Positions 1-10,549 of a stretch of DNA of 10,549 nucleotides are shown here, in pieces. The notes under the pieces were generated by a model. That model did not search any database, was not told the origin of the DNA, and saw only the letters and a program-made list of their open reading frames with translations. This DNA is from Amoebophrya sp. A120 (lineage: Eukaryota > Protista > Dinoflagellata), in assembly GCA_905178155.1 (NCBI GenBank), contig CAJINV010000006.1:2392136-2402684 (forward strand), read 5' to 3'. Position 1 is the stretch's first letter; every line of letters starts with the position of its first letter. The position numbers and the translations under genes are program-made.

Positions 1-204
1 GGCCAGCATGACTCTCAAGTCTGTCATGCACAGTATCCCAAAGGAGCCCCAACTTTCTGTCATGCAAAGACCAAGTTTGTCATGCTGAATAGAGAACACG
101 CAGCAAGTCAGGAACTTGTCATGCTGAGCCGTCACTTGTGGCCTCCTCATGATTCGCCCCTCAGCATCTCAAGTTTCCAGACCCAGACATATTTGCAATG
201 CATA
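1..204. mobile_element. TAT..ATA introner-like element / putative non-canonical intron (left end outside window)
   Basis: Ends TTCCAGACCCAGACATATTTGCAATGCATA followed by TCATG (205-209). Only 2 differences from 6067-6270, which is the complete copy at the equivalent site. Confidence 0.9.
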
Positions 205-795
205 TCATGCCCATGTCTTTCAAACCGGTCATCATGTCAGTGCTTTCCCCCTCGTCGTCGCCGTCTGCCTTCGCCGCAACGTGAGCCTTCTTGGCATGCG
301 TCAGCATCTTCTGCACGAAAGAGGTGCCCAACATAGCGGACTGCAGCTCGGCAAAGTCATCCGGGGTGACCTGCATGAGGCTCGCTTCTTCTTCTTCACC
401 CGCGGCAGCCTGGGTGGAAAAAAATATAAAGAAGTAGCAGTAGCCTGGTAAGTTGTCACTGGTGGATGTCAACATCAAATTTTAAACCCAAAGCACTGTA
501 CTCGCACACCTCTCGCTGCTCGAAGACAGAAGAAGTAGAGTCTACCTACTAGTATCGTCGGTTCACCAATTAGTTATAGTTGCTTCAATGAAATTAGCGC
601 GTCTGTAGTTAACTACAAGGAGCTCCTGTTATTTTCGAAATACGAATGGGCTAAGTAAGTAAGTACCTCGGTCGCTTTCACGTCGGAGCGGGTGGTCTTC
701 TTGCGGAGCAGGCTTTCGGCCGAGACAACGGTCGCGGAGGCGACATTGGCGGCGACAGCGCCGAGCAGCACCAGGGTCTTCTTGGAGGCGAACAT
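205..795 (-). CDS. Secreted protein with EF-hand-like loop, tandem copy 1 (5' part; exon 795-667, GT-AG intron, exon 409-205; continues beyond window start)
   Basis: Exon 1 MFASKKTLVLLGAVAANVASATVVSAESLLRKKTTRSDVKATE (hydrophobic N-terminus) joins in phase 0 to AAAGEEEEASLMQVTPDDFAELQSAMLGTSFVQKMLTHAKKAHVAAKADGDDEGESTDMMTGLKDMGM. Indels versus copy 2 are multiples of 3. Confidence 0.8.
410..666 (-). other. Canonical GT-AG spliceosomal intron
   Basis: Minus strand GAG|GTACTTACTTAC...TTTTTTCCACCCAG|GCT. Phase 0, pyrimidine tract, both ends conserved in the paralogous intron 6747-7014. Confidence 0.75.
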
Positions 796-1355: not shown

Positions 1356-1408
1356 CACTACACCAGCGCGGCATACGTATACTATACGTATGCCGCGCTG
1401 GTGTAGTG
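1356..1408. repeat. Perfect 53-bp palindrome with CACTAC...GTAGTG ends
   Basis: CACTACACCAGCGCGGCATACGTATA-C-TATACGTATGCCGCGCTGGTGTAGTG: 26-bp perfect arms, 1-nt centre. No matching flanking TSD. Confidence 0.9.
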
Positions 1409-2427: not shown

Positions 2428-2469
2428 TTCCCTTTCATAAGACCACGTCGGTACCTAGCCCATACACGG

Positions 2470-2730
2470 TATGGATTGCAAAAATGTCTGGGTCTGGAGA
2501 GGTTAAACCTGTATTGCGTATTTCGCATTCCTGAAAAATCTGTACTGCATAAGCAGCAAATAAAGCGCCACACTTTCGTCATCCAAATAAAACGCAGTTT
2601 GTATATGTGTTCTGCGCATGAGAAAGAGTTTGAAACATTTGTCATGCTGCACTGCACTTACATGCACAGTCAATCATGACCATTCAGCATGACAAGTTTC
2701 CAGAGGACTCACACATATTTGCAACGCATA
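2470..2730. mobile_element. TAT..ATA introner-like element (261 bp) in kinase CDS
   Basis: TATGGATTGCAAAAATGTCTGGGTCTGG...CACATATTTGCAACGCATA. Perfect DR CACGG (2465-2469, 2731-2735). Removal joins LHTV to YGLGTD. Confidence 0.9.
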
Positions 2731-2836
2731 CACGGTGTGCAGCTGCAACGAGCCGCCGAGGTAGCGTGCGTACAGATTTGCCAGGGGCAGCCCGCAACCA
2801 CCCCCAGCGAAGGTCACTGTTTTGTAGTGTTGGCGG

Positions 2837-3029
2837 TATGAATTGCAAAATAGACATCTTCGTAAGTACACAAATCTTCGCATGCCAAATTTCCATTTCC
2901 TGCGCACGGGTAGAAATGGAATCTGTAAAAATGCGGAGTTACATCAGGGAAGGGAAGAGATTTCATTTGTAATTATGCATGAATGCTGTCATTAGTACGA
3001 CTGCGATTATACAACTTTTGCAATGCATA
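2837..3029. mobile_element. TAT..ATA introner-like element (193 bp) in kinase CDS
   Basis: TATGAATTGCAAAA...TTTTGCAATGCATA. DR GGCGG/GCCGG (1 mismatch, synonymous Arg position). Frame restored on removal. Confidence 0.82.
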
Positions 3030-3041
3030 GCCGGGAGAGAA

Positions 3042-3263
3042 TATCCCACGAAAAAACTGTTTCACTGTAATGATTTTGCAAGTTTTGCATTACAAATTTG
3101 TTTACACATGACAAAGAAAACTTGCCATGCGAGGTTGCTAAGCACGGAAAACAGCACAGCTACAAATCATTTCTTGCCTTGCTTGTGCTGTAGCAACACA
3201 AACACTTCTGCAATGCATTTTCTGCATTACAAGTTTACAGTGAAACAGTTTTCTCTTGCGATA
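3042..3263. mobile_element. TAT..ATA introner-like element (222 bp), different TIR family
   Basis: TATCCCACGAAAAAACTGTTTCACTGTAA / TTACAGTGAAACAGTTTTCTCTTGCGATA. DR GAGAA/AAGAA. Frame restored on removal. Confidence 0.87.
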
Positions 3264-3312
3264 AAGAAAGTTGGTTTCCTCGAAGTTCGCCTGTTCCGCG
3301 AAAGAAGAGCTG

Positions 3313-3627
3313 CATCCTAAGCAAAAATGTCCCCACACCAGAGAAGTCAAGATGGGACCTCTGCTAGACAAATCAGCCAGCTTTGGCTGCTTCGCATGAC
3401 AAGTTTCGATCCTGGTAGTGTACTCCTCGATTTATTAGGTAGCTCAGCAGCATCACAGATCTAGCATATCAACATGCTGATTACAGCATCACAAATTCCA
3501 ACACACGATATAGAAAATGTTTCTCATGGGTTTTTCCGCATAAGAAACTTTTTATTTTTGGATTTGGCATGCAGATTTGCATGACAACTCTGGGGTCGTG
3601 GGAAAGTCTACGGTTTTCCTCAGAATA
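3313..3627. mobile_element. Degenerate introner-like element (315 bp)
   Basis: Left end CAT-CCTAAGC-AAAAA (T>C), right end TTTT-CCTCAGA-ATA. Residual inner IR CCCAC..CCAGAG. DR AGCTG/AACTG. Internal GCATGACAA motifs. Removal joins TTASS to SSFAEQ in frame. Confidence 0.7.
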
Positions 3628-3688
3628 AACTGCTGGCCGTGGTTGGGTTGGTCGTGTTGGGTGCCAGTTGTTGCGCTAACAACTGCTG

Positions 3689-3810
3689 TATGCAATGCAA
3701 AAGCATCGCAGTGGTCGCACTAGTATCTTCTATAAATTGCATTACAAATCTACTTCTTGACAGAATGATCTTCGACTCTGGTCTTTTCTCACGCCAAGCA
3801 CCTTCTAGAG
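3689..3810. mobile_element. Truncated introner-like element (left end only)
   Basis: Begins TATGCAATGCAAAAG directly after the kinase exon. No matching right TIR before homology to unit 2 resumes at 3811. Confidence 0.55.
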
Positions 3811-5091: not shown

Positions 5092-5092
5092 N
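5092..5092. other. Ambiguous base, probable scaffold gap or join
   Basis: Single N exactly where homology with unit 2 (8612) stops and composition switches to GC-rich. Confidence 0.75.
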
Positions 5093-5110
5093 GGGTACGG
5101 GTTTTGTTTT

Positions 5111-5203
5111 TCTGCCCACCAAGGCCCGCGCGCGTTGCCTCGCGAATTAGCCGTTGTTTGTCTGCACACCAAGGCCCGCGCGCATGGCCTCGCGAATTAG
5201 CCG
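5111..5203 (+). repeat. Two-copy GC-rich direct repeat, 50-bp period
   Basis: TCTGC(C/A)CACCAAGGCCCGCGCGC(GTT/ATG)GCCTCGCGAATTAGCCG at 5111 and 5161, followed by a C-rich run at about 5207-5225. Confidence 0.85.
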
Positions 5204-5445
5204 ATGGCCCCCCGCCCCCCCCCCCTCCACACGCCCGCGCCTGCGTCGCCCCCTGCCTTCCGCGGGAGCTTCTGCTCGCGGCGTCGCGCGACGAGCACTA
5301 CCTCGAACGCACGGCAACAGCATGGAACTTGTTTCACGTGTCTCACCGTCTCACCCCAAAAAAAAACCAATCTTGGCACCGCCGCGCCCCGAGCGCTTTT
5401 TTCCATTTCTACTGTTGTGTTCCGCCCGTCTGCTGCTTTGTTCCC

Positions 5446-5590
5446 GACTACAATTTGGCGCACCGAGGCCGTCCGCCTCGGTGCACCGAGGCGGCCATTC
5501 CGAAAAACTGGCATTTTTGGCTTCGGTGCGCCATTTTGTATGCGCGTCCTGAAGAAACTTCTTCTAGCCTCGGTGCGCCAACTTGTAGTG
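5446..5590. mobile_element. CACTA-like miniature inverted-repeat element
   Basis: Left GACTACAATTTGGCGCACCGAGGC versus reverse complement of right end CACTACAAGTTGGCGCACCGAGGC (22/24). Repeated CACCGAGGC motif in both orientations. No clear TSD. Confidence 0.55.
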
Positions 5591-5610
5591 GCGCACCGAG
5601 GCCACGACAC

Positions 5611-5667
5611 TACCGAGGCGACGTCATGCATGACTGCAATACGAGTACGATACTTTTGCACAGGATA
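5611..5667. mobile_element. Right arm of a long or interrupted TAT..ATA element
   Basis: 5639-5667 reverse complement TATCCTGTGCAAAAGTATCGTACTCGTAT. Flank CCTTG (5668-5672). Pairs with the left arm at 9495. Confidence 0.8.
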
Positions 5668-7131
5668 CCTTGTTCATCATGTCGACGATGACTTTCATGA
5701 ACTCAAAGCCCGGAACCAGGTGCGAGTTCATTTCCAGCTTGCCGTCATCATCGGAATCCATCCGCTTCAGCTGGGTGTGCAGGAACTCCTGCAGCTGGGG
5801 CTGGTATCACAAGAAAAAGTGTTAACGTTAACGGAATTTGTGATGCAGTAACGCATCAGAAAAGGTGCCCAAATTTGTATTTCGTAGCATGCATGGAAGG
5901 CAATGGCAAAATTTGTAATGCATAGCTGCCATCTGTGAAAACCGTTAACGTTAACAATTTTTGCTTTGATAGCTGGAACGTCTCGAACATGATCTTCGCC
6001 ATGGCCATGTATCCATTGCAAATATGTCTGAGTCTGGAACAAGAGCGCAAGTTTGTCAACATGCTCGGCCAGCATGACTCTCAAGTCTGTCATGCACAGT
6101 ATCCCAAAGGAGCCCCAACTTTCTGTCATGCAAAGACCAAGTTTGTCATGCTGAATAGAGAACACGTAGCAAGTCAGGAACTTGTCATGCTGAGCCGTCA
6201 CTTGTGGCCTCCTCATGATTCGCCCCTCAGCATCACAAGTTTCCAGACCCAGACATATTTGCAATGCATATCATGCCCATGTCTTTCAAACCGGTCATCA
6301 TGTCCGTGCTTTCCCCCGCCTCGTCATCGCCGTCTGCCTTCGCCGCAACGTGGGCCTTCTTGGTATCAAATGCAAAAATGTCTGGGTCTGGAAGATTGCC
6401 AGGTTTGTCATGCATATTCTGCATGACCCATGATGCCTGTAGTGCATGACTTAGCATCACAGATTTTTGGAAGGCTTGGGCTTCCTGATGCCTATTCTGC
6501 ATGACAAATGCCCTCTCCACGTAGCACAATCTGAGCTCCTCTTGCTGGTCATGCAACACAGATTTCTTTGGAATCCAAAGACAGCATGACAAGTTTGGAT
6601 CCTTCCAGACCCAGACATATTTGCAATGCATACTTGGCATGCGTCAGCATCTTCTGCACGAAAGAGGTTCCCAGCATGGCGGACTGCAGCTCGGCAAAGT
6701 CATCCGGGGTGACCTGCATGAGGCTTGCTTCTTCATCCGCGGCAGCCTGGGTGGAAAAAAATATAAACGAGAAGTAGTAGCCTGGTAAGTTGTCACTGGC
6801 GAATTATGTCAACATCAAATTTTTAAGGAACCCAAAGCACTCACACTCTACTCGCACGTGTGGTCTCACTGCTAGGAGACAGAAGCAGAGTCTAGCTACT
6901 GGTATCGTCGGTTCACCAATTTTCAGTACTACTTCGCTGAAGTTAGCGCATGATCTTCTGTACAAGAAGCTCCTTTTTTCCAAATACTTACAAATGGTTT
7001 AAGTAAGTAAGTACCACGTCGGAGCGGGTGGTCTTCTTGCGGAGCAGGCTTTCGGCCGAGACAACGGTCGCGGAGGCGACGTTGGCGGCGGCAGCGCCGA
7101 GCAGGACCAGGGTCTTCTTGGAGGCGAACAT
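5668..7131 (-). CDS. Secreted protein with EF-hand-like loop, tandem copy 2 (exons approx 7131-7015, 6746-6633, 6358-6271, 6004-5972, 5799-5668; last exon missing at the gap)
   Basis: After removing 1 GT-AG intron and 3 elements, the uninterrupted frame is MFASKKTLVLLGAAAANVASATVVSAESLLRKKTTRSDV-AAADEEASLMQVTPDDFAELQSAMLGTSFVQKMLTHAK-KAHVAAKADGDDEAGESTDMMTGLKDMGM-AMAKIMFETFQ-PQLQEFLHTQLKRMDSDDDGKLEMNSHLVPGFEFMKVIVDMMNK, with strong GC3 codon bias. Exon edges are ambiguous within the 5-bp DRs. Confidence 0.85.
5805..5971. mobile_element. TAT..ATA introner-like element (167 bp), third TIR family
   Basis: TATCACAAGAAAAAGTGTTAACGTTAACGG / CCGTTAACGTTAACAATTTTTGCTTTGATA. Perfect DR GCTGG (5800-5804, 5972-5976). 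Confidence 0.92.
6010..6270. mobile_element. TAT..ATA introner-like element (261 bp)
   Basis: TATCCATTGCAAATATGTCTGAGTCTGGAA / TTCCAGACCCAGACATATTTGCAATGCATA. DR CCATG/TCATG. Shared with copy 1. Confidence 0.92.
6364..6632. mobile_element. TAT..ATA introner-like element (269 bp), with empty site in paralogue
   Basis: Perfect DR CTTGG (6359-6363, 6633-6637). Copy 1 has a single CTTGG at 290-294 in uninterrupted coding sequence. Confidence 0.95.
6747..7014 (-). other. Canonical GT-AG intron (paralogue of 410-666)
   Basis: GTG|GTACTTACTTAC...TTTTTCCACCCAG|GCT, phase 0. Confidence 0.75.
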
Positions 7132-9457
7132 TTTTGGTTTGTGTAGTTTTTCGCTCCTTTATCGAAGAAAACAAAAAAAAGTTTTTTTTAGGGACAAAAG
7201 GTTTCTCGTAGAAGAGGTTCTTGTACTAGTGGTTGGCTTGCTGCCGGTTTTTTTGAGACTTGGTTTATTTCAGTCGAGGAGTGATGTTTGTTTCCTGTGA
7301 TCTTCAAAATGGTTTATGGTTGTCTTGTGTGGAAGTAAGGAAGAATCACCTTTTAGATAGCGACTATTAGTGTATTTTCGAATACTTATCACTAACAGGA
7401 CGTAGTGCCGCAGAAGTTGTTAACGAGAGTTGAAGACGAACTGTAAGAATCATCTGCGGGGGCAGCCTTGGTGTACGACTACGACCACGACATCCACATC
7501 AGTGAAGACATATTGATATTTACATACCAAATTCATGACGAAATTCATGCTTCCCCCGCCGCGAAACAACATCTTACGTGCGATATACTGAACGACGTAC
7601 TTCATGCTTCATTGCAACCGTGGACGAGGACGACGAAGACGATATCTATTTCAACATTTGCACACGACACAAATTTTTTCTTCTACTACAAGATCTGCCG
7701 AGATCTGGTCCATTTCGTCGGGGTGATCGTCGTCACAATTTTGCTGGATTTTTCGTGTGGGGCTAGTGTTCTATCCAAGCTTGTACTTACAACTGTAGTC
7801 CTCCTATTGGGAGCTGCTGCTATCATCTCTGGATCTTCGGTGCACATGCACCACTACTTCCTTACTACAAGAACGCAGACCGACATTATTTGCATCCATT
7901 CCGTCACAGGACCATGCACCACGATCCAGTAGTATAGGAAGAAAAGAACATCATCGCACCTCCGTGAAAGCGAGCGGTCGTGCGAAAGAACTTAAAAACG
8001 TGGGCGGCTGCCATCATGCAAGCATATGAGCGCCCTAGTTCCTCCCCTGTTCCGTCGATTTTCATCTCCCAGTAGGCTATACTAGCGATAAAAGGTTTTG
8101 TCGGATTGTATCTTGACGTGGTAGGTTTCATTCGCACAACTTCTGTAGTACTTACACTAGAAAATAAGTTTGCTCGCCGACGCCGTTATAAGTGGCTACC
8201 AACATCGCGAGAGGATCGGGTGTGGATTGAAGCAGAATGATGTTGATTATCAAAGTAGCGGGCTACGCAGCAGGCGCTTCAGAAGTACTCTACTACTCGG
8301 GAAAAGAAATATTCTATCGTTGTACAACGGCCGCGCACGGTTTATTTCTTTGCCCAGATCATAAATCTTATCCCGTAGAGTAATGCTTTCTTACCCTTCC
8401 GTGGCTAGGGCTACTACGTCCTCGAGAAGAGTGGCTGAATAAGCTCAAGCTGAAAGAAAGGTGGCAACATGATTTGCAGTGTAGATGTAGTACTATAGGC
8501 AGCAGGGTACTTAGTACTGAATGAGTGTTTTTACCACGTTTAATACTCTCTGAGTGGGAAACAGTTAATAAAGGGGATGAAATTCGTTCCATCAGGTTCG
8601 TCAGTGGGGAGAAGTCTTGTAAGTGCTAACTTTTCAAATTCACATTGGGGAGAAACAATCAAAGTCTTGGACGAGTTGAGTCGTCAAAAATTGATCTTGT
8701 TTTTGCAGCTGTGTAAAATAAATTTAAATGCTTGTCGTGTGAAATTATTACGCAATGAAAAAGAAAATTGTATGTGAATACGAAAAGGAGTAGTAATAGT
8801 AAAGCCTTAGCCTTACAACAAGAACCTTCTAATAAAAGATAAATTTACGAGCGATTCTTAGTGGACGAGGGGCAACATCAAGGTCGAAGTCAGGCGTGTC
8901 GGGTTGCGGCCATAGAGATAGACGCGGTGGCGCTCAGTGTCGTGGAAACACTTTCACTTCTACTGTTGACGACTACTACCTGATATCATCCGCCCCGTCT
9001 TGTGATGTAGCTGAGGTTAAGAACCTCAACTCTTGCAGATGAATCTTTGCTCGCGACAAAACGACCATGAAACTCGTTGACTAGCGTCTTGGAGTTTGTT
9101 GTGCGTTTTGTTATTTCGAGAGAAAATTTATTGTTAAGTATCAAATGTTAGAACAAACAATCATGAAAACAAGAACGGCACAAAATTTACTGGTGTACAC
9201 AAATAAACGCATATTTTCAATCGAAATTTGCAGTTGTAAGAAGTAGAATGGAAAAACAAAAAGTAATACAGTCTGGACGATATTACGTTATAAAAGTGTT
9301 GAAAAGATAATTTTTTTATATGTTCTCCTGGATTTTAAAGATTTTTTGACAGTTCTGAACCCCTTTCGTTCCACCGTTCGGTTGTGTTAAACGGCGTCAC
9401 GACTCAGACGACTTGTTGTAGTACAACTAGTCGCTGATAAACCGACGTGGTTTCGGT

Positions 9458-9494
9458 TTAGGAGGACTCGGCCTCCCACGACTGCAGCTCCTTG
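9458..9494 (-). CDS. Terminal exon of the secreted protein (next tandem copy)
   Basis: Reads (N)KELQSWEAESS-TAA in the frame expected after ...DMMNK, and carries the same CCTTG direct repeat as 5668-5672. Confidence 0.7.
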
Positions 9495-9631
9495 TATGAA
9501 CTGCAAAAGTATCGTACTCGTATAAATGCATATCCATTTCCATATACAAATATCCTCGGCATGAGAAATTTAATTTGCAATGCTGATTTACCTTAGGGAA
9601 AAGATTTGTAATGCATGACGTGGCCTAGGTA
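9495..9631. mobile_element. Left arm of a long or interrupted TAT..ATA element
   Basis: TATGAACTGCAAAAGTATCGTACTCGTAT matches the 5639-5667 arm (22 contiguous inner bases identical). Preceded by CCTTG. A second IR at 9611-9631 matches 5611-5631 (19/21). Confidence 0.8.
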
Positions 9632-10146
9632 CGCACATACGACTCGGTACGCCAAATCATATGTTGGAAGGGAAGTGGGTCTATTGCTACCTGTAGGGGA
9701 AAAAGGTGAAATAATGTGGCGCGATTTTCCCGCCCAACATTTATGACGATGAGACACCTGCGCGGCAAGAACTGTGGCGCCTCAAAGTCGGCGCCGGCAA
9801 GGATCGGGCCAGACGCTCAGAATAAGTAGAAGGGCCGCCCACAGGAGTGTCAAAAAATCAGCGGCAGGAGGAGACTGCACGTCCCCGCATGTGAAAGAGT
9901 GCGCCTCAGAGAGAGCGCCCATTTCCGTATATGGATGGCCGTGGAAAAATCGACGACAGAAAAAAGGCGCACGACTTAAATCTGAGAAGGCGGGAGCTGG
10001 CAAGAAGGCAAAGCTGTTCACTCACTGAACATGCCCTCCAGAAAGCGCGCTCATTTTTTCACATGTGGGGAAATTATAGTCGCCAGAAAGAGAGCGCGCC
10101 CATTCGCATCCGACAAAATAGTGCCAGTAGCGACAGGCCTCACGTC

Positions 10147-10549
10147 TCGTTTTTCGTGTGAAGGAATGACCTCCGGGAACAAGCCCCACTTTTTCGCATG
10201 TGAAAAAATGGACGCCAGGAACAAGTTGCATTTTTTCACATGTGAAAGAATGGCCGCCAGAAACAAAATCCATTTTTTCACACGTGAAAGAATGGCCGCA
10301 AGAAACAAAGTCCATTTTTTCACATGTGAAAGAATGGCGGCCAGAAACAAAATCCATTCTTTCACATGTGAAAGAATGGCCGCCAGGAACAAATTTCATT
10401 CTTTCACATGTGAAACAATGGCGGCCAGAAACAAAATCCATTCTTTCACGTGTGAAAGAATGGCCGCCAGAAACAAATTTTATTCTTTCACATGTGAAAG
10501 AATGGCGGCCAGAAACAAAATCCATTCTTTCACATGTGAAAGAATGGCC
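10147..10549. repeat. 42-bp minisatellite with 26-bp palindromic core, running off window end
   Basis: Consensus CCATTCTTTCACATGTGAAAGAATGG-CGGCCAGAAACAAAAT. About 9 clear units (centres near 10198, 10240 ... 10534) plus a degenerate unit to the left. Confidence 0.95.

What the first reader, a model, noticed from the sequence alone, without database searches (positions are those of the whole stretch)
5668..6746. Transposon-derived non-canonical introns (TAT-N7-AAA introners) riddle an otherwise intact gene
Seen: three complete TIR elements plus one arm interrupt about 370 nt of coding sequence, and excising each with one 5-bp DR yields a stop-free frame. No placement of the junction inside the DR gives GT-AG for the elements at 5805 (CCAGC), 6010 (CATGA/G) or 6364 (CCAAG); only the CAAGG site can be GT-AG. 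The same gene also has a normal GT-AG intron. Known: Amoebophrya genomes carry IR/DR-bounded non-canonical introner introns, and to my knowledge their removal mechanism is unresolved. Inference: these elements are excised precisely by a structure- or TIR-guided system coexisting with the standard spliceosome.
Basis: partly seen in the sequence, partly recalled or inferred. Interest (0 to 1): 0.88.

Follow-up and report, generated by a model that had tools for sequence, protein, structure and literature searches.

The report
Amoebophrya transposon introns lacking splice signals
Three small transposons interrupt a gene of the marine parasite Amoebophrya and are missing from its RNA, although their ends lack the usual GT-AG signals; this intron class is already published, but how it is cut out is still unproven, likely by a modified spliceosome.

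Summary
Real, but already described. E1 (5805-5971), E2 (6010-6270) and E3 (6364-6632) are TAT-N7-AAA terminal-inverted-repeat elements with 5-bp target duplications. None can be placed as GT-AG. A tandem paralog in the window matches an Amoebophrya sp. A120 gene model at 100% over 68 aa, and Farhat 2021 (PMC7789003) names this motif for A120 introner elements. RNA-like contigs carrying this copy's allele skip E1 plus one repeat exactly; a DNA-like run keeps E1. E2 and E3 removal is supported indirectly. 'Otherwise intact' needs a caveat: this copy's last exon is not in the window, and homology stops at an N at 5092. In 165 loci of another assembly, 250 of 273 arm pairs have a 5-bp repeat, 56 of 59 coding sites keep frame, 6 of 89 could be GT-AG, and both orientations occur. 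A test for selection on the RNA stem was null, so 'structure-guided' is unproven. An unexplained codon-phase bias was found (49 of 89). The scan noted similar introns in other genomes, none in this one.

The parts
7015..7131 (-). Exon 1 of gene copy 2 (ATG at 7131; hydrophobic, signal-peptide-like N-terminus by eye, not predicted with a tool)
   Evidence: covered in RNA-like runs
6747..7014 (-). Canonical GT-AG intron, 268 nt
   Evidence: sequence; depth 0-5 in RNA-like runs; listed joints are of paralog type
6638..6746 (-). Exon 2
6364..6632 (.). E3, TAT-N7-AAA TIR element, 269 nt; perfect 5-bp DR at 6359-6363 and 6633-6637; absent from paralog copy 1, present at 93% in L088
   Evidence: joint 6358->6633 and X3 record 21; fold z -6.3
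6276..6363 (-). Exon 3
6010..6270 (.). E2, TIR element, 261 nt; 4/5 DR at 6005-6009 and 6271-6275; shared with copy 1 at 202 of 204 letters
   Evidence: contig ends; fold z -6.6
5977..6009 (-). Exon 4, 33 nt after removing one DR
5805..5971 (.). E1, TIR element, 167 nt; perfect 5-bp DR at 5800-5804 and 5972-5976
   Evidence: joint 5799->5972 in X1 and X3 with this copy's allele; kept in X5; fold z -5.3
5668..5804 (-). Exon 5, with a weak EF-hand-like loop (DSDDDGKLE)
   Evidence: PDB best E 0.07, calbindin; Pfam EH E 0.04 on P0002, below cut-off
5621..5667 (.). E0, arm at the intron's 5' side next to CAAGG; can be GT-AG; partner arm not in this copy's visible sequence
5093..5620 (.). Likely right end of a different repeated element nested in E0 (inferred: ACGT duplication, 8/10 terminal match to 9622 onward, the two ends taken from different copies)
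   Evidence: depth about 570-610 against 40-50 single-copy in X5
5092..5092 (.). Single N where homology with the next tandem unit stops; likely assembly gap
9458..9494 (-). Last exon of the gene family (ELQSWEAESS-stop), belonging to the next tandem copy
   Evidence: P0002 ends with it; contiguous with exon 5 in L088; X1 record 8
9495..9621 (.). E0 partner arm and body in the next copy, DR CCTTG at 9490-9494
1..795 (-). Paralog copy 1, 5' part: carries E2 (1-204), empty E3 site with one DR; matches A120 model GSA120T00020650001

Best explanation
Three short inverted-repeat elements with 5-base target duplications interrupt a transcribed Amoebophrya gene and are missing, each with one copy of the duplication, from its RNA (shown for E1, inferred for E2 and E3), likely because a relaxed major spliceosome uses the elements' own conserved ends instead of GT-AG. 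Steps: (1) shown: non-autonomous TIR elements, 5-bp duplication, an empty site in the paralog. (2) Shown on related loci: insertion into coding sequence in both orientations, with no fixed dinucleotide in the target. (3) Shown for E1, indirect for E2 and E3: RNA lacks element plus one DR, while DNA keeps it. (4) Indirect for E2: the 5' cut is at least one base upstream of TAT. (5) Inferred: the 5' cut is one base before TAT (N-TAT, a GTA-like donor with the G relaxed); the symmetric TIR supplies this in either orientation; the paired ends or the 3' arm motif set the 3' cut four bases past ATA. Confidence is about 0.9 for steps 1-3 and about 0.55 for step 5.
For: Elements and DRs. Empty E3 site in copy 1 and empty E0 site in L088. 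RNA: in X1 and X3 (2 of 4 RNA-like runs, one sample) 157-nt contigs with 0 differences over 5684-5799, where paralog contigs have 9-11, join 5799->5972. DNA-like X5 has a 146-nt contig, 0 differences, depth 51, running from 5684 into E1 to 5829. E3: X3 record 21 has 0 differences over 6275-6363 and its last 2 letters do not continue into E3. E2: the E1-spanning contigs have 3 letters past 6009 that are not TAT, and all 7 listed paralog contigs of exon 3 start at 6272, not 6271, so the mRNA keeps the downstream G; model P0002 also reads MGMAMAK. Related loci: 56 of 59 sites keep frame; 6 of 89 can be GT-AG; E3-family orientation 15 versus 10. All nine 'predominant' A120 motifs in Table S4 of PMC7789003 have T as second base, and at that register E1 is CT-AG, E3 GT-AA and E0 GT-AG. 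That paper found all but 6 of 89 spliceosomal proteins and no U1 snRNA. Copy 1 versus copy 2: 9 synonymous and 2 non-synonymous changes in 103 codons.
Against: No lariat, branch point or spliceosome dependence was tested. No GT or AG enrichment at any register; the only skew is C depleted before the 5' TAT (11 versus 22 expected, 1 of 56 tests). No G.U excess in the stem (62:51, 78:87, 100:102), so a role for RNA pairing is unsupported. The NT pattern in Table S4 may come from the aligner (HISAT2). RNA evidence is contigs from one study, 'RNA' is a guess by the tool, and rare forms are dropped. This copy's allele is the minor form (7.5 of 21.6 in X1, 14.2 of 70.1 in X3) and is not listed in X2 or X4. 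No joint across E2 is listed (4 joints were not shown), and the E3 joint is also produced by the empty-site paralog.
Confidence: 0.62

Rival explanations
1. A spliceosome-independent, end-guided RNA pathway (nuclease plus ligase recognising the paired TIRs, as proposed for euglenid nonconventional introns) removes the elements next to the normal spliceosome.
For: No sequence signal outside TAT/ATA, both orientations tolerated; terminal stems fold with z -5.3 to -6.6; U1 snRNA not found; euglenid precedent. One X1 contig (depth 6) joins an E3-family right end back to a left end (table 5c).
Against: The stems follow from transposon origin alone; no G.U excess. The head-to-tail contig lacks the 5-nt spacer that a full-length circle should have, and may be DNA or a tandem. 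GT-AG-compatible elements such as E0 share the same ends.
Confidence: 0.27
2. The elements are cut out of the DNA in the transcribing intracellular stage, like ciliate internal eliminated sequences, so the RNA never needs splicing.
For: TA-like ends with one DR copy retained resemble IES excision (recalled, not tested). The life stage of X5 is not given.
Against: The DNA-like run shows the allele unbranched into E1. Element arms with long foreign flanks are abundant in the RNA-like runs. No germline-soma split is known to me in Amoebophrya (recalled).
Confidence: 0.05
3. Copy 2 is a decaying pseudogene of a tandem family; the RNA joints come from paralogs that lack the elements.
For: The last exon is missing from the window and E0 seems to hold a large nested element. 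No model of copy 2 was found: P0002's cluster has 1 member. Paralog alleles dominate the RNA.
Against: Contigs with 0 differences to copy 2 skip E1 in two runs, while the same allele carries E1 in DNA. A 189-nt X1 contig has 9349-9489 plus 46 more letters, the length of 5668-5713, which ends where copy 2 and a paralog diverge. Mostly synonymous divergence.
Confidence: 0.06

Closest known systems
Introner elements (IEs) among the non-canonical introns of Amoebophrya sp. A120 (Farhat et al. 2021, PMC7789003)
   Same: IR motif TAT + 7 nt + at least 3 A, short DR over the boundaries (5-bp example in the Fig. S19 legend), similar length (mean 240 nt), non-GT-AG junctions, genes mixing canonical and non-canonical introns, same organism by protein identity.
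   Different: Nothing in kind. Here the DR is strictly 5 bp (paper: 3-5 nt) and the IRs run to about 30 bp (paper: 8-20 nt). I found no statement on orientation independence or phase bias in the parts read; figures were not seen.
A120 introner families in Gozashti et al. 2025 (PMC12130899)
   Same: Diverse TIR DNA-transposon introners in A120, up to tens per gene; one TIR family carries an integrase-like ORF.
   Different: The elements here are short and non-coding; I did not match them to a numbered family.
Fritillaria borealis non-canonical introns (via review PMC11282704)
   Same: MITE-derived, TIR plus TSD, removed by an adapted U2 spliceosome.
   Different: There the ends are mostly AG-AC or AG-AT; here no dinucleotide is fixed outside the TIR.
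Euglenid nonconventional introns (via review PMC11282704)
   Same: TIR stem, TSD-like repeats, no GT-AG, mechanism unresolved.
   Different: They have a pyrimidine|purine junction rule and are released as circles; neither is shown here.

Membership tests
Amoebophrya A120 introner elements | Terminal IR beginning TAT-N7-AAA | tested here: met
   against the text
Amoebophrya A120 introner elements | Short direct repeat over the exon-intron boundary | tested here: met
   5 bp at E1, E2 (4/5), E3; 250 of 273 in related loci
Amoebophrya A120 introner elements | Repeated in the genome | tested here: met
   E3 family at 2166 and 4646; summed arm depth in X5 above 10^5 against about 50
Amoebophrya A120 introner elements | Absent from mRNA at a non-GT-AG junction | tested here: met
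   E1 joint with this copy's allele; E2 and E3 indirect
Amoebophrya A120 introner elements | Host is A120 or a close relative | tested here: met
   paralog exon 100% identical over 68 aa to P0002, named Amoebophrya sp. A120 by its sources
MITE (non-autonomous TIR DNA transposon) | TIR, fixed-length TSD, short, empty sites exist | tested here: met
MITE (non-autonomous TIR DNA transposon) | Cognate autonomous transposase element | tested here: inconclusive
   no perfect-DR arm pair longer than 834 nt in 431 kb of loci; three longer 4/5 pairs not examined for ORFs; genome not held
U2-type spliceosomal intron | GT/GC-AG ends | tested here: not met
   0 of 3 elements; 7 of 89 in related loci
U2-type spliceosomal intron | Lariat and branch point, spliceosome dependence | not testable with these tools
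   needs lariat sequencing or inhibition
U12-type intron | AT-AC ends with U12 consensus and a minor spliceosome | tested here: not met
   AT-AC possible only for E2 and 7 of 89; minor snRNAs reported absent
Euglenid-type nonconventional intron | Selected RNA stem; release as a full-length circle | tested here: inconclusive
   no G.U excess; one ambiguous head-to-tail contig
Ciliate-type IES (DNA elimination) | Empty-site DNA in a somatic stage | tested here: inconclusive
   X5 keeps E1, but its stage is unknown and contigs drop rare forms

The most novel reading that the evidence does not exclude
Amoebophrya removes tens of thousands of transposon introns by a second, spliceosome-independent pathway that reads only the symmetric TAT-N7-AAA ends, works in either orientation, cuts at a fixed offset inside the target duplication, and leaves a codon-phase footprint.
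Probability: 0.22. Interest if true: 0.8.

Novelty: already known. Interest (0 to 1): 0.3.

Why it matters
The element class and its motif are published, so the locus itself is an ordinary example. The open question behind it is real: no mechanistic follow-up turned up in five literature searches (open-access library only). This locus is a convenient test bed: three non-canonical elements, one GT-AG-compatible element and one ordinary intron in a 1.5-kb gene, with filled and empty paralogs. Imperfect target duplications (39 of 250) offer a way to map the true cut register genome-wide from existing RNA reads.

Tried and rejected
No whole genome is held, and the contig behind L088 could not be searched further. 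The look-up of sequencing runs listed no holder on record as RNA; this blank is not used as evidence. TIR motif in viral contigs: 0 matches. Pfam on exon peptides and on P0002: nothing above cut-off. A homology search with P0002 found only itself. A first frame test using the best of six frames separated precise from shifted removal only weakly (62 versus 30-31 of 174 with at least 80 codons each side), so a codon model was used instead. The G.U versus A.C stem test was null. A symmetric target-site matrix predicts only 35-38% of sites in the favoured phase against 55% seen, so it does not explain the bias. Stop-codon logic on 19 imperfect DRs did not tell which copy is exonic. No autonomous element was found. 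Orientation of E2 against E3 in the window is only weakly scored (53 opposite versus 28 same) and is not relied on. 'Stop-free frame proves splicing' was rejected as circular.

Full report
Observation. The window holds 13 plus-strand and 14 minus-strand TAT-N7-AAA motifs. Three pairs lie in a minus-strand gene: E1 5805-5971, E2 6010-6270 and E3 6364-6632. Each has about 30 bp of inverted repeat and a direct repeat that matches only at length 5. Removing each with one repeat, plus the GT-AG intron 6747-7014, gives 161 stop-free codons; keeping any one truncates the frame. None of the six placements per element is GT-AG, while the arm at 5667 (E0) can be.

Context. The gene is one of at least three tandem copies. 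Copy 1 (1-795) carries E2 but has a single CTTGG where copy 2 has E3, a direct empty site. Copy 2's last exon and the partner arm of E0 are not in its visible sequence. They appear in the next unit at 9458-9621, and homology between units stops at the only N of the window, 5092. I read this as an assembly gap, with a larger element nested in E0; both points are inferred. An exon of copy 1 matches one protein at 100% over 68 aa: P0002, 176 aa, named Amoebophrya sp. A120, model GSA120T00020650001. That model already reads through the E2, E1 and E0 positions. Copy 2 matches it at 154 of 160 aligned residues, with 9 synonymous and 2 non-synonymous changes in 103 shared codons. The protein has no other homologue at similar length and only a weak EF-hand-like match.

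RNA versus DNA. Eleven runs were listed and seven laid. X1-X4 (one study, two samples) are labelled RNA by guess only. They behave as RNA: depth is 0-5 over the canonical intron, joints cross it, and X1 has no cover over 7256-8025 where X5 has 78-128. For E1, 157-nt contigs in X1 (depth 7.5) and X3 (14.2) have no difference from copy 2 over 5684-5799, where paralog contigs have 9-11, and they join 5799 to 5972: element plus one repeat. In X5 a 146-nt contig of the same allele runs unbroken into E1. For E3 the joint 6358->6633 stands in 4 of 4 runs but is also made by the empty-site paralog. The copy-2 evidence is one X3 contig whose last two letters do not enter E3. For E2 no joint is listed. 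The E1-spanning contigs carry three letters past 6009 that are not TAT and end 30 letters after a paralog difference at 5982, and all seven listed paralog contigs of exon 3 begin at 6272 rather than 6271. I infer from this that the mRNA keeps the downstream G of the imperfect repeat, so the 5' cut is not flush with TAT. For E0, an X1 contig has 9349-9489 plus 46 letters, X3 shows last-exon letters before 5668, and L088 has the site empty. Against: the copy-2 allele is the minor form, is not listed in X2 or X4, contigs hide rare forms, and these runs may not be independent of the published annotation.

Related loci. Of 273 arm pairs, 211 have a perfect and 39 a 4/5 repeat at 5 bp (shuffle mean 5.9); lengths are flat modulo 3; 271 of 273 have distinct flanks. 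With a codon model trained on 38 long frames, 56 of 59 sites with two coding flanks stay in frame after precise removal. Of 250 elements, 89 could be oriented (the rest lacked flank or score); 6 could be GT-AG, 10 G[TCA]-AG, 7 AT-AC, and the E3 family lies 15 to 10 in the two orientations. No register shows a fixed dinucleotide except the TIR's own TA. The elements fold with their ends paired (z -5.3 to -6.6), but G.U pairs are not favoured over A.C in the sense strand, so selection on the stem is not shown; the test is weak for young copies. A codon-phase bias, 49 of 89 against a flat control, remains unexplained.

Mechanism. Shown: transposon-type insertion with a 5-bp duplication, into coding DNA, in either orientation, and precise absence from RNA for E1. 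Inferred: how the cut is made. I favour a relaxed major spliceosome cutting one base before TAT. E2 excludes a flush 5' cut; all nine predominant A120 motifs in Table S4 have T in second place, and E1 (CT-AG) and E3 (GT-AA) fall on listed motifs at that register; GT-AG-compatible members such as E0 share the same ends; nearly all spliceosomal proteins are reported present and U1 snRNA absent. The table's pattern may be an aligner effect. An end-guided non-spliceosomal route remains a serious rival; DNA-level elimination and a dead pseudogene are unlikely.

What is known. PMC7789003 (seen: abstract, passages including most of section 11, sections 10, 12, 16, 32, supplement passages and part 3 of 5; figures not held) states that A120 IR motifs start with TAT, then seven nucleotides, then at least three A, counts 29,850 repeated introns and leaves the mechanism open. 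PMC12130899 (passages) assigns A120 introners to diverse TIR transposons. PMC12005148 (passages) confines such elements to part of the genus. PMC11282704 (passages and section 6) reviews the Fritillaria and euglenid parallels; those primary papers were not read. PMC9860276 and PMC11453091 were seen as passages. Searches found no mechanistic follow-up, within an open-access library. The unseen Figs. S19-S25, the other supplement parts and the datasets of PMC12130899 may already contain the register, orientation or phase results. IES resemblance and the usual phase-0 excess of spliceosomal introns are recalled, not from a call. Earlier scan notes describe similar hairpin introns in other genomes and none in this one; they were not checked and did not change my reading.

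Verdict. A confirmed, transcribed example of a published element class: already known, interest 0.30. The most novel reading not excluded is a spliceosome-independent, end-guided pathway (probability about 0.22, interest 0.8 if true).

Noticed in passing
L001-L165, 89 oriented elements: Codon-phase bias: the 5-bp repeat is centred on codon position 2 in 49 of 89 sites (17/49/23, chi-square p 6e-5; control positions flat at 1099/1128/1131). Not explained by a target-site matrix. With a cut one base before TAT it equals a phase-0 excess.
   Followed up: partly
window 2428-3690, minus strand: Fragment of a pyruvate dehydrogenase kinase / BCKD kinase-like gene (PDB E 8e-4 for 2731-2835), cut by further TAT-N7-AAA elements at 2470, 2837, 3042 and 3312. 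A TGA follows the conserved motif and no 5' part is visible.
   Followed up: partly
window 1-204 versus 6067-6270: E2 differs by 1% between paralogs while the canonical intron differs by 15% and the upstream flank by 17%. This suggests recent gene conversion spreading or homogenising the element.
   Followed up: partly
window 9622-10549 and 5093-5620: Probable large element nested in E0, with an ACGT duplication, a 42-bp tandem array (10108-10549) and GC-rich palindromes (5440-5596).
   Followed up: partly
L088:1-470: Homolog of the gene with E3 present and the E0 site empty; the 3' exons lie inverted right after E3's end (rearrangement or assembly chimera).
   Followed up: partly
L001-L165, neighbouring elements: Spacing between called neighbours is never under 37 nt (126 gaps; 40 of them 37-99 nt), unpaired arms come as close as 26 nt, and lengths cluster near 150, 210 and 265 nt. 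The window has a 12-nt gap at 3030-3041.
   Followed up: partly
run X1 on window 6611->6371: One contig (depth 6) joins an E3-family right end to a left end without a 5-nt spacer; circle or tandem, unresolved.
   Followed up: no
window 8026-9103: Covered in RNA-like run X1 while 7256-8025 is not: a long 3' UTR of the next copy or another transcript.
   Followed up: no
window 1356-1408: Perfect 26-bp palindrome with a 1-nt spacer.
   Followed up: no
run X9 on window 6364-6397: About 90 raw RNA reads carry the E3-family arm with foreign flanks, a retained element at another locus or in another strain.
   Followed up: no
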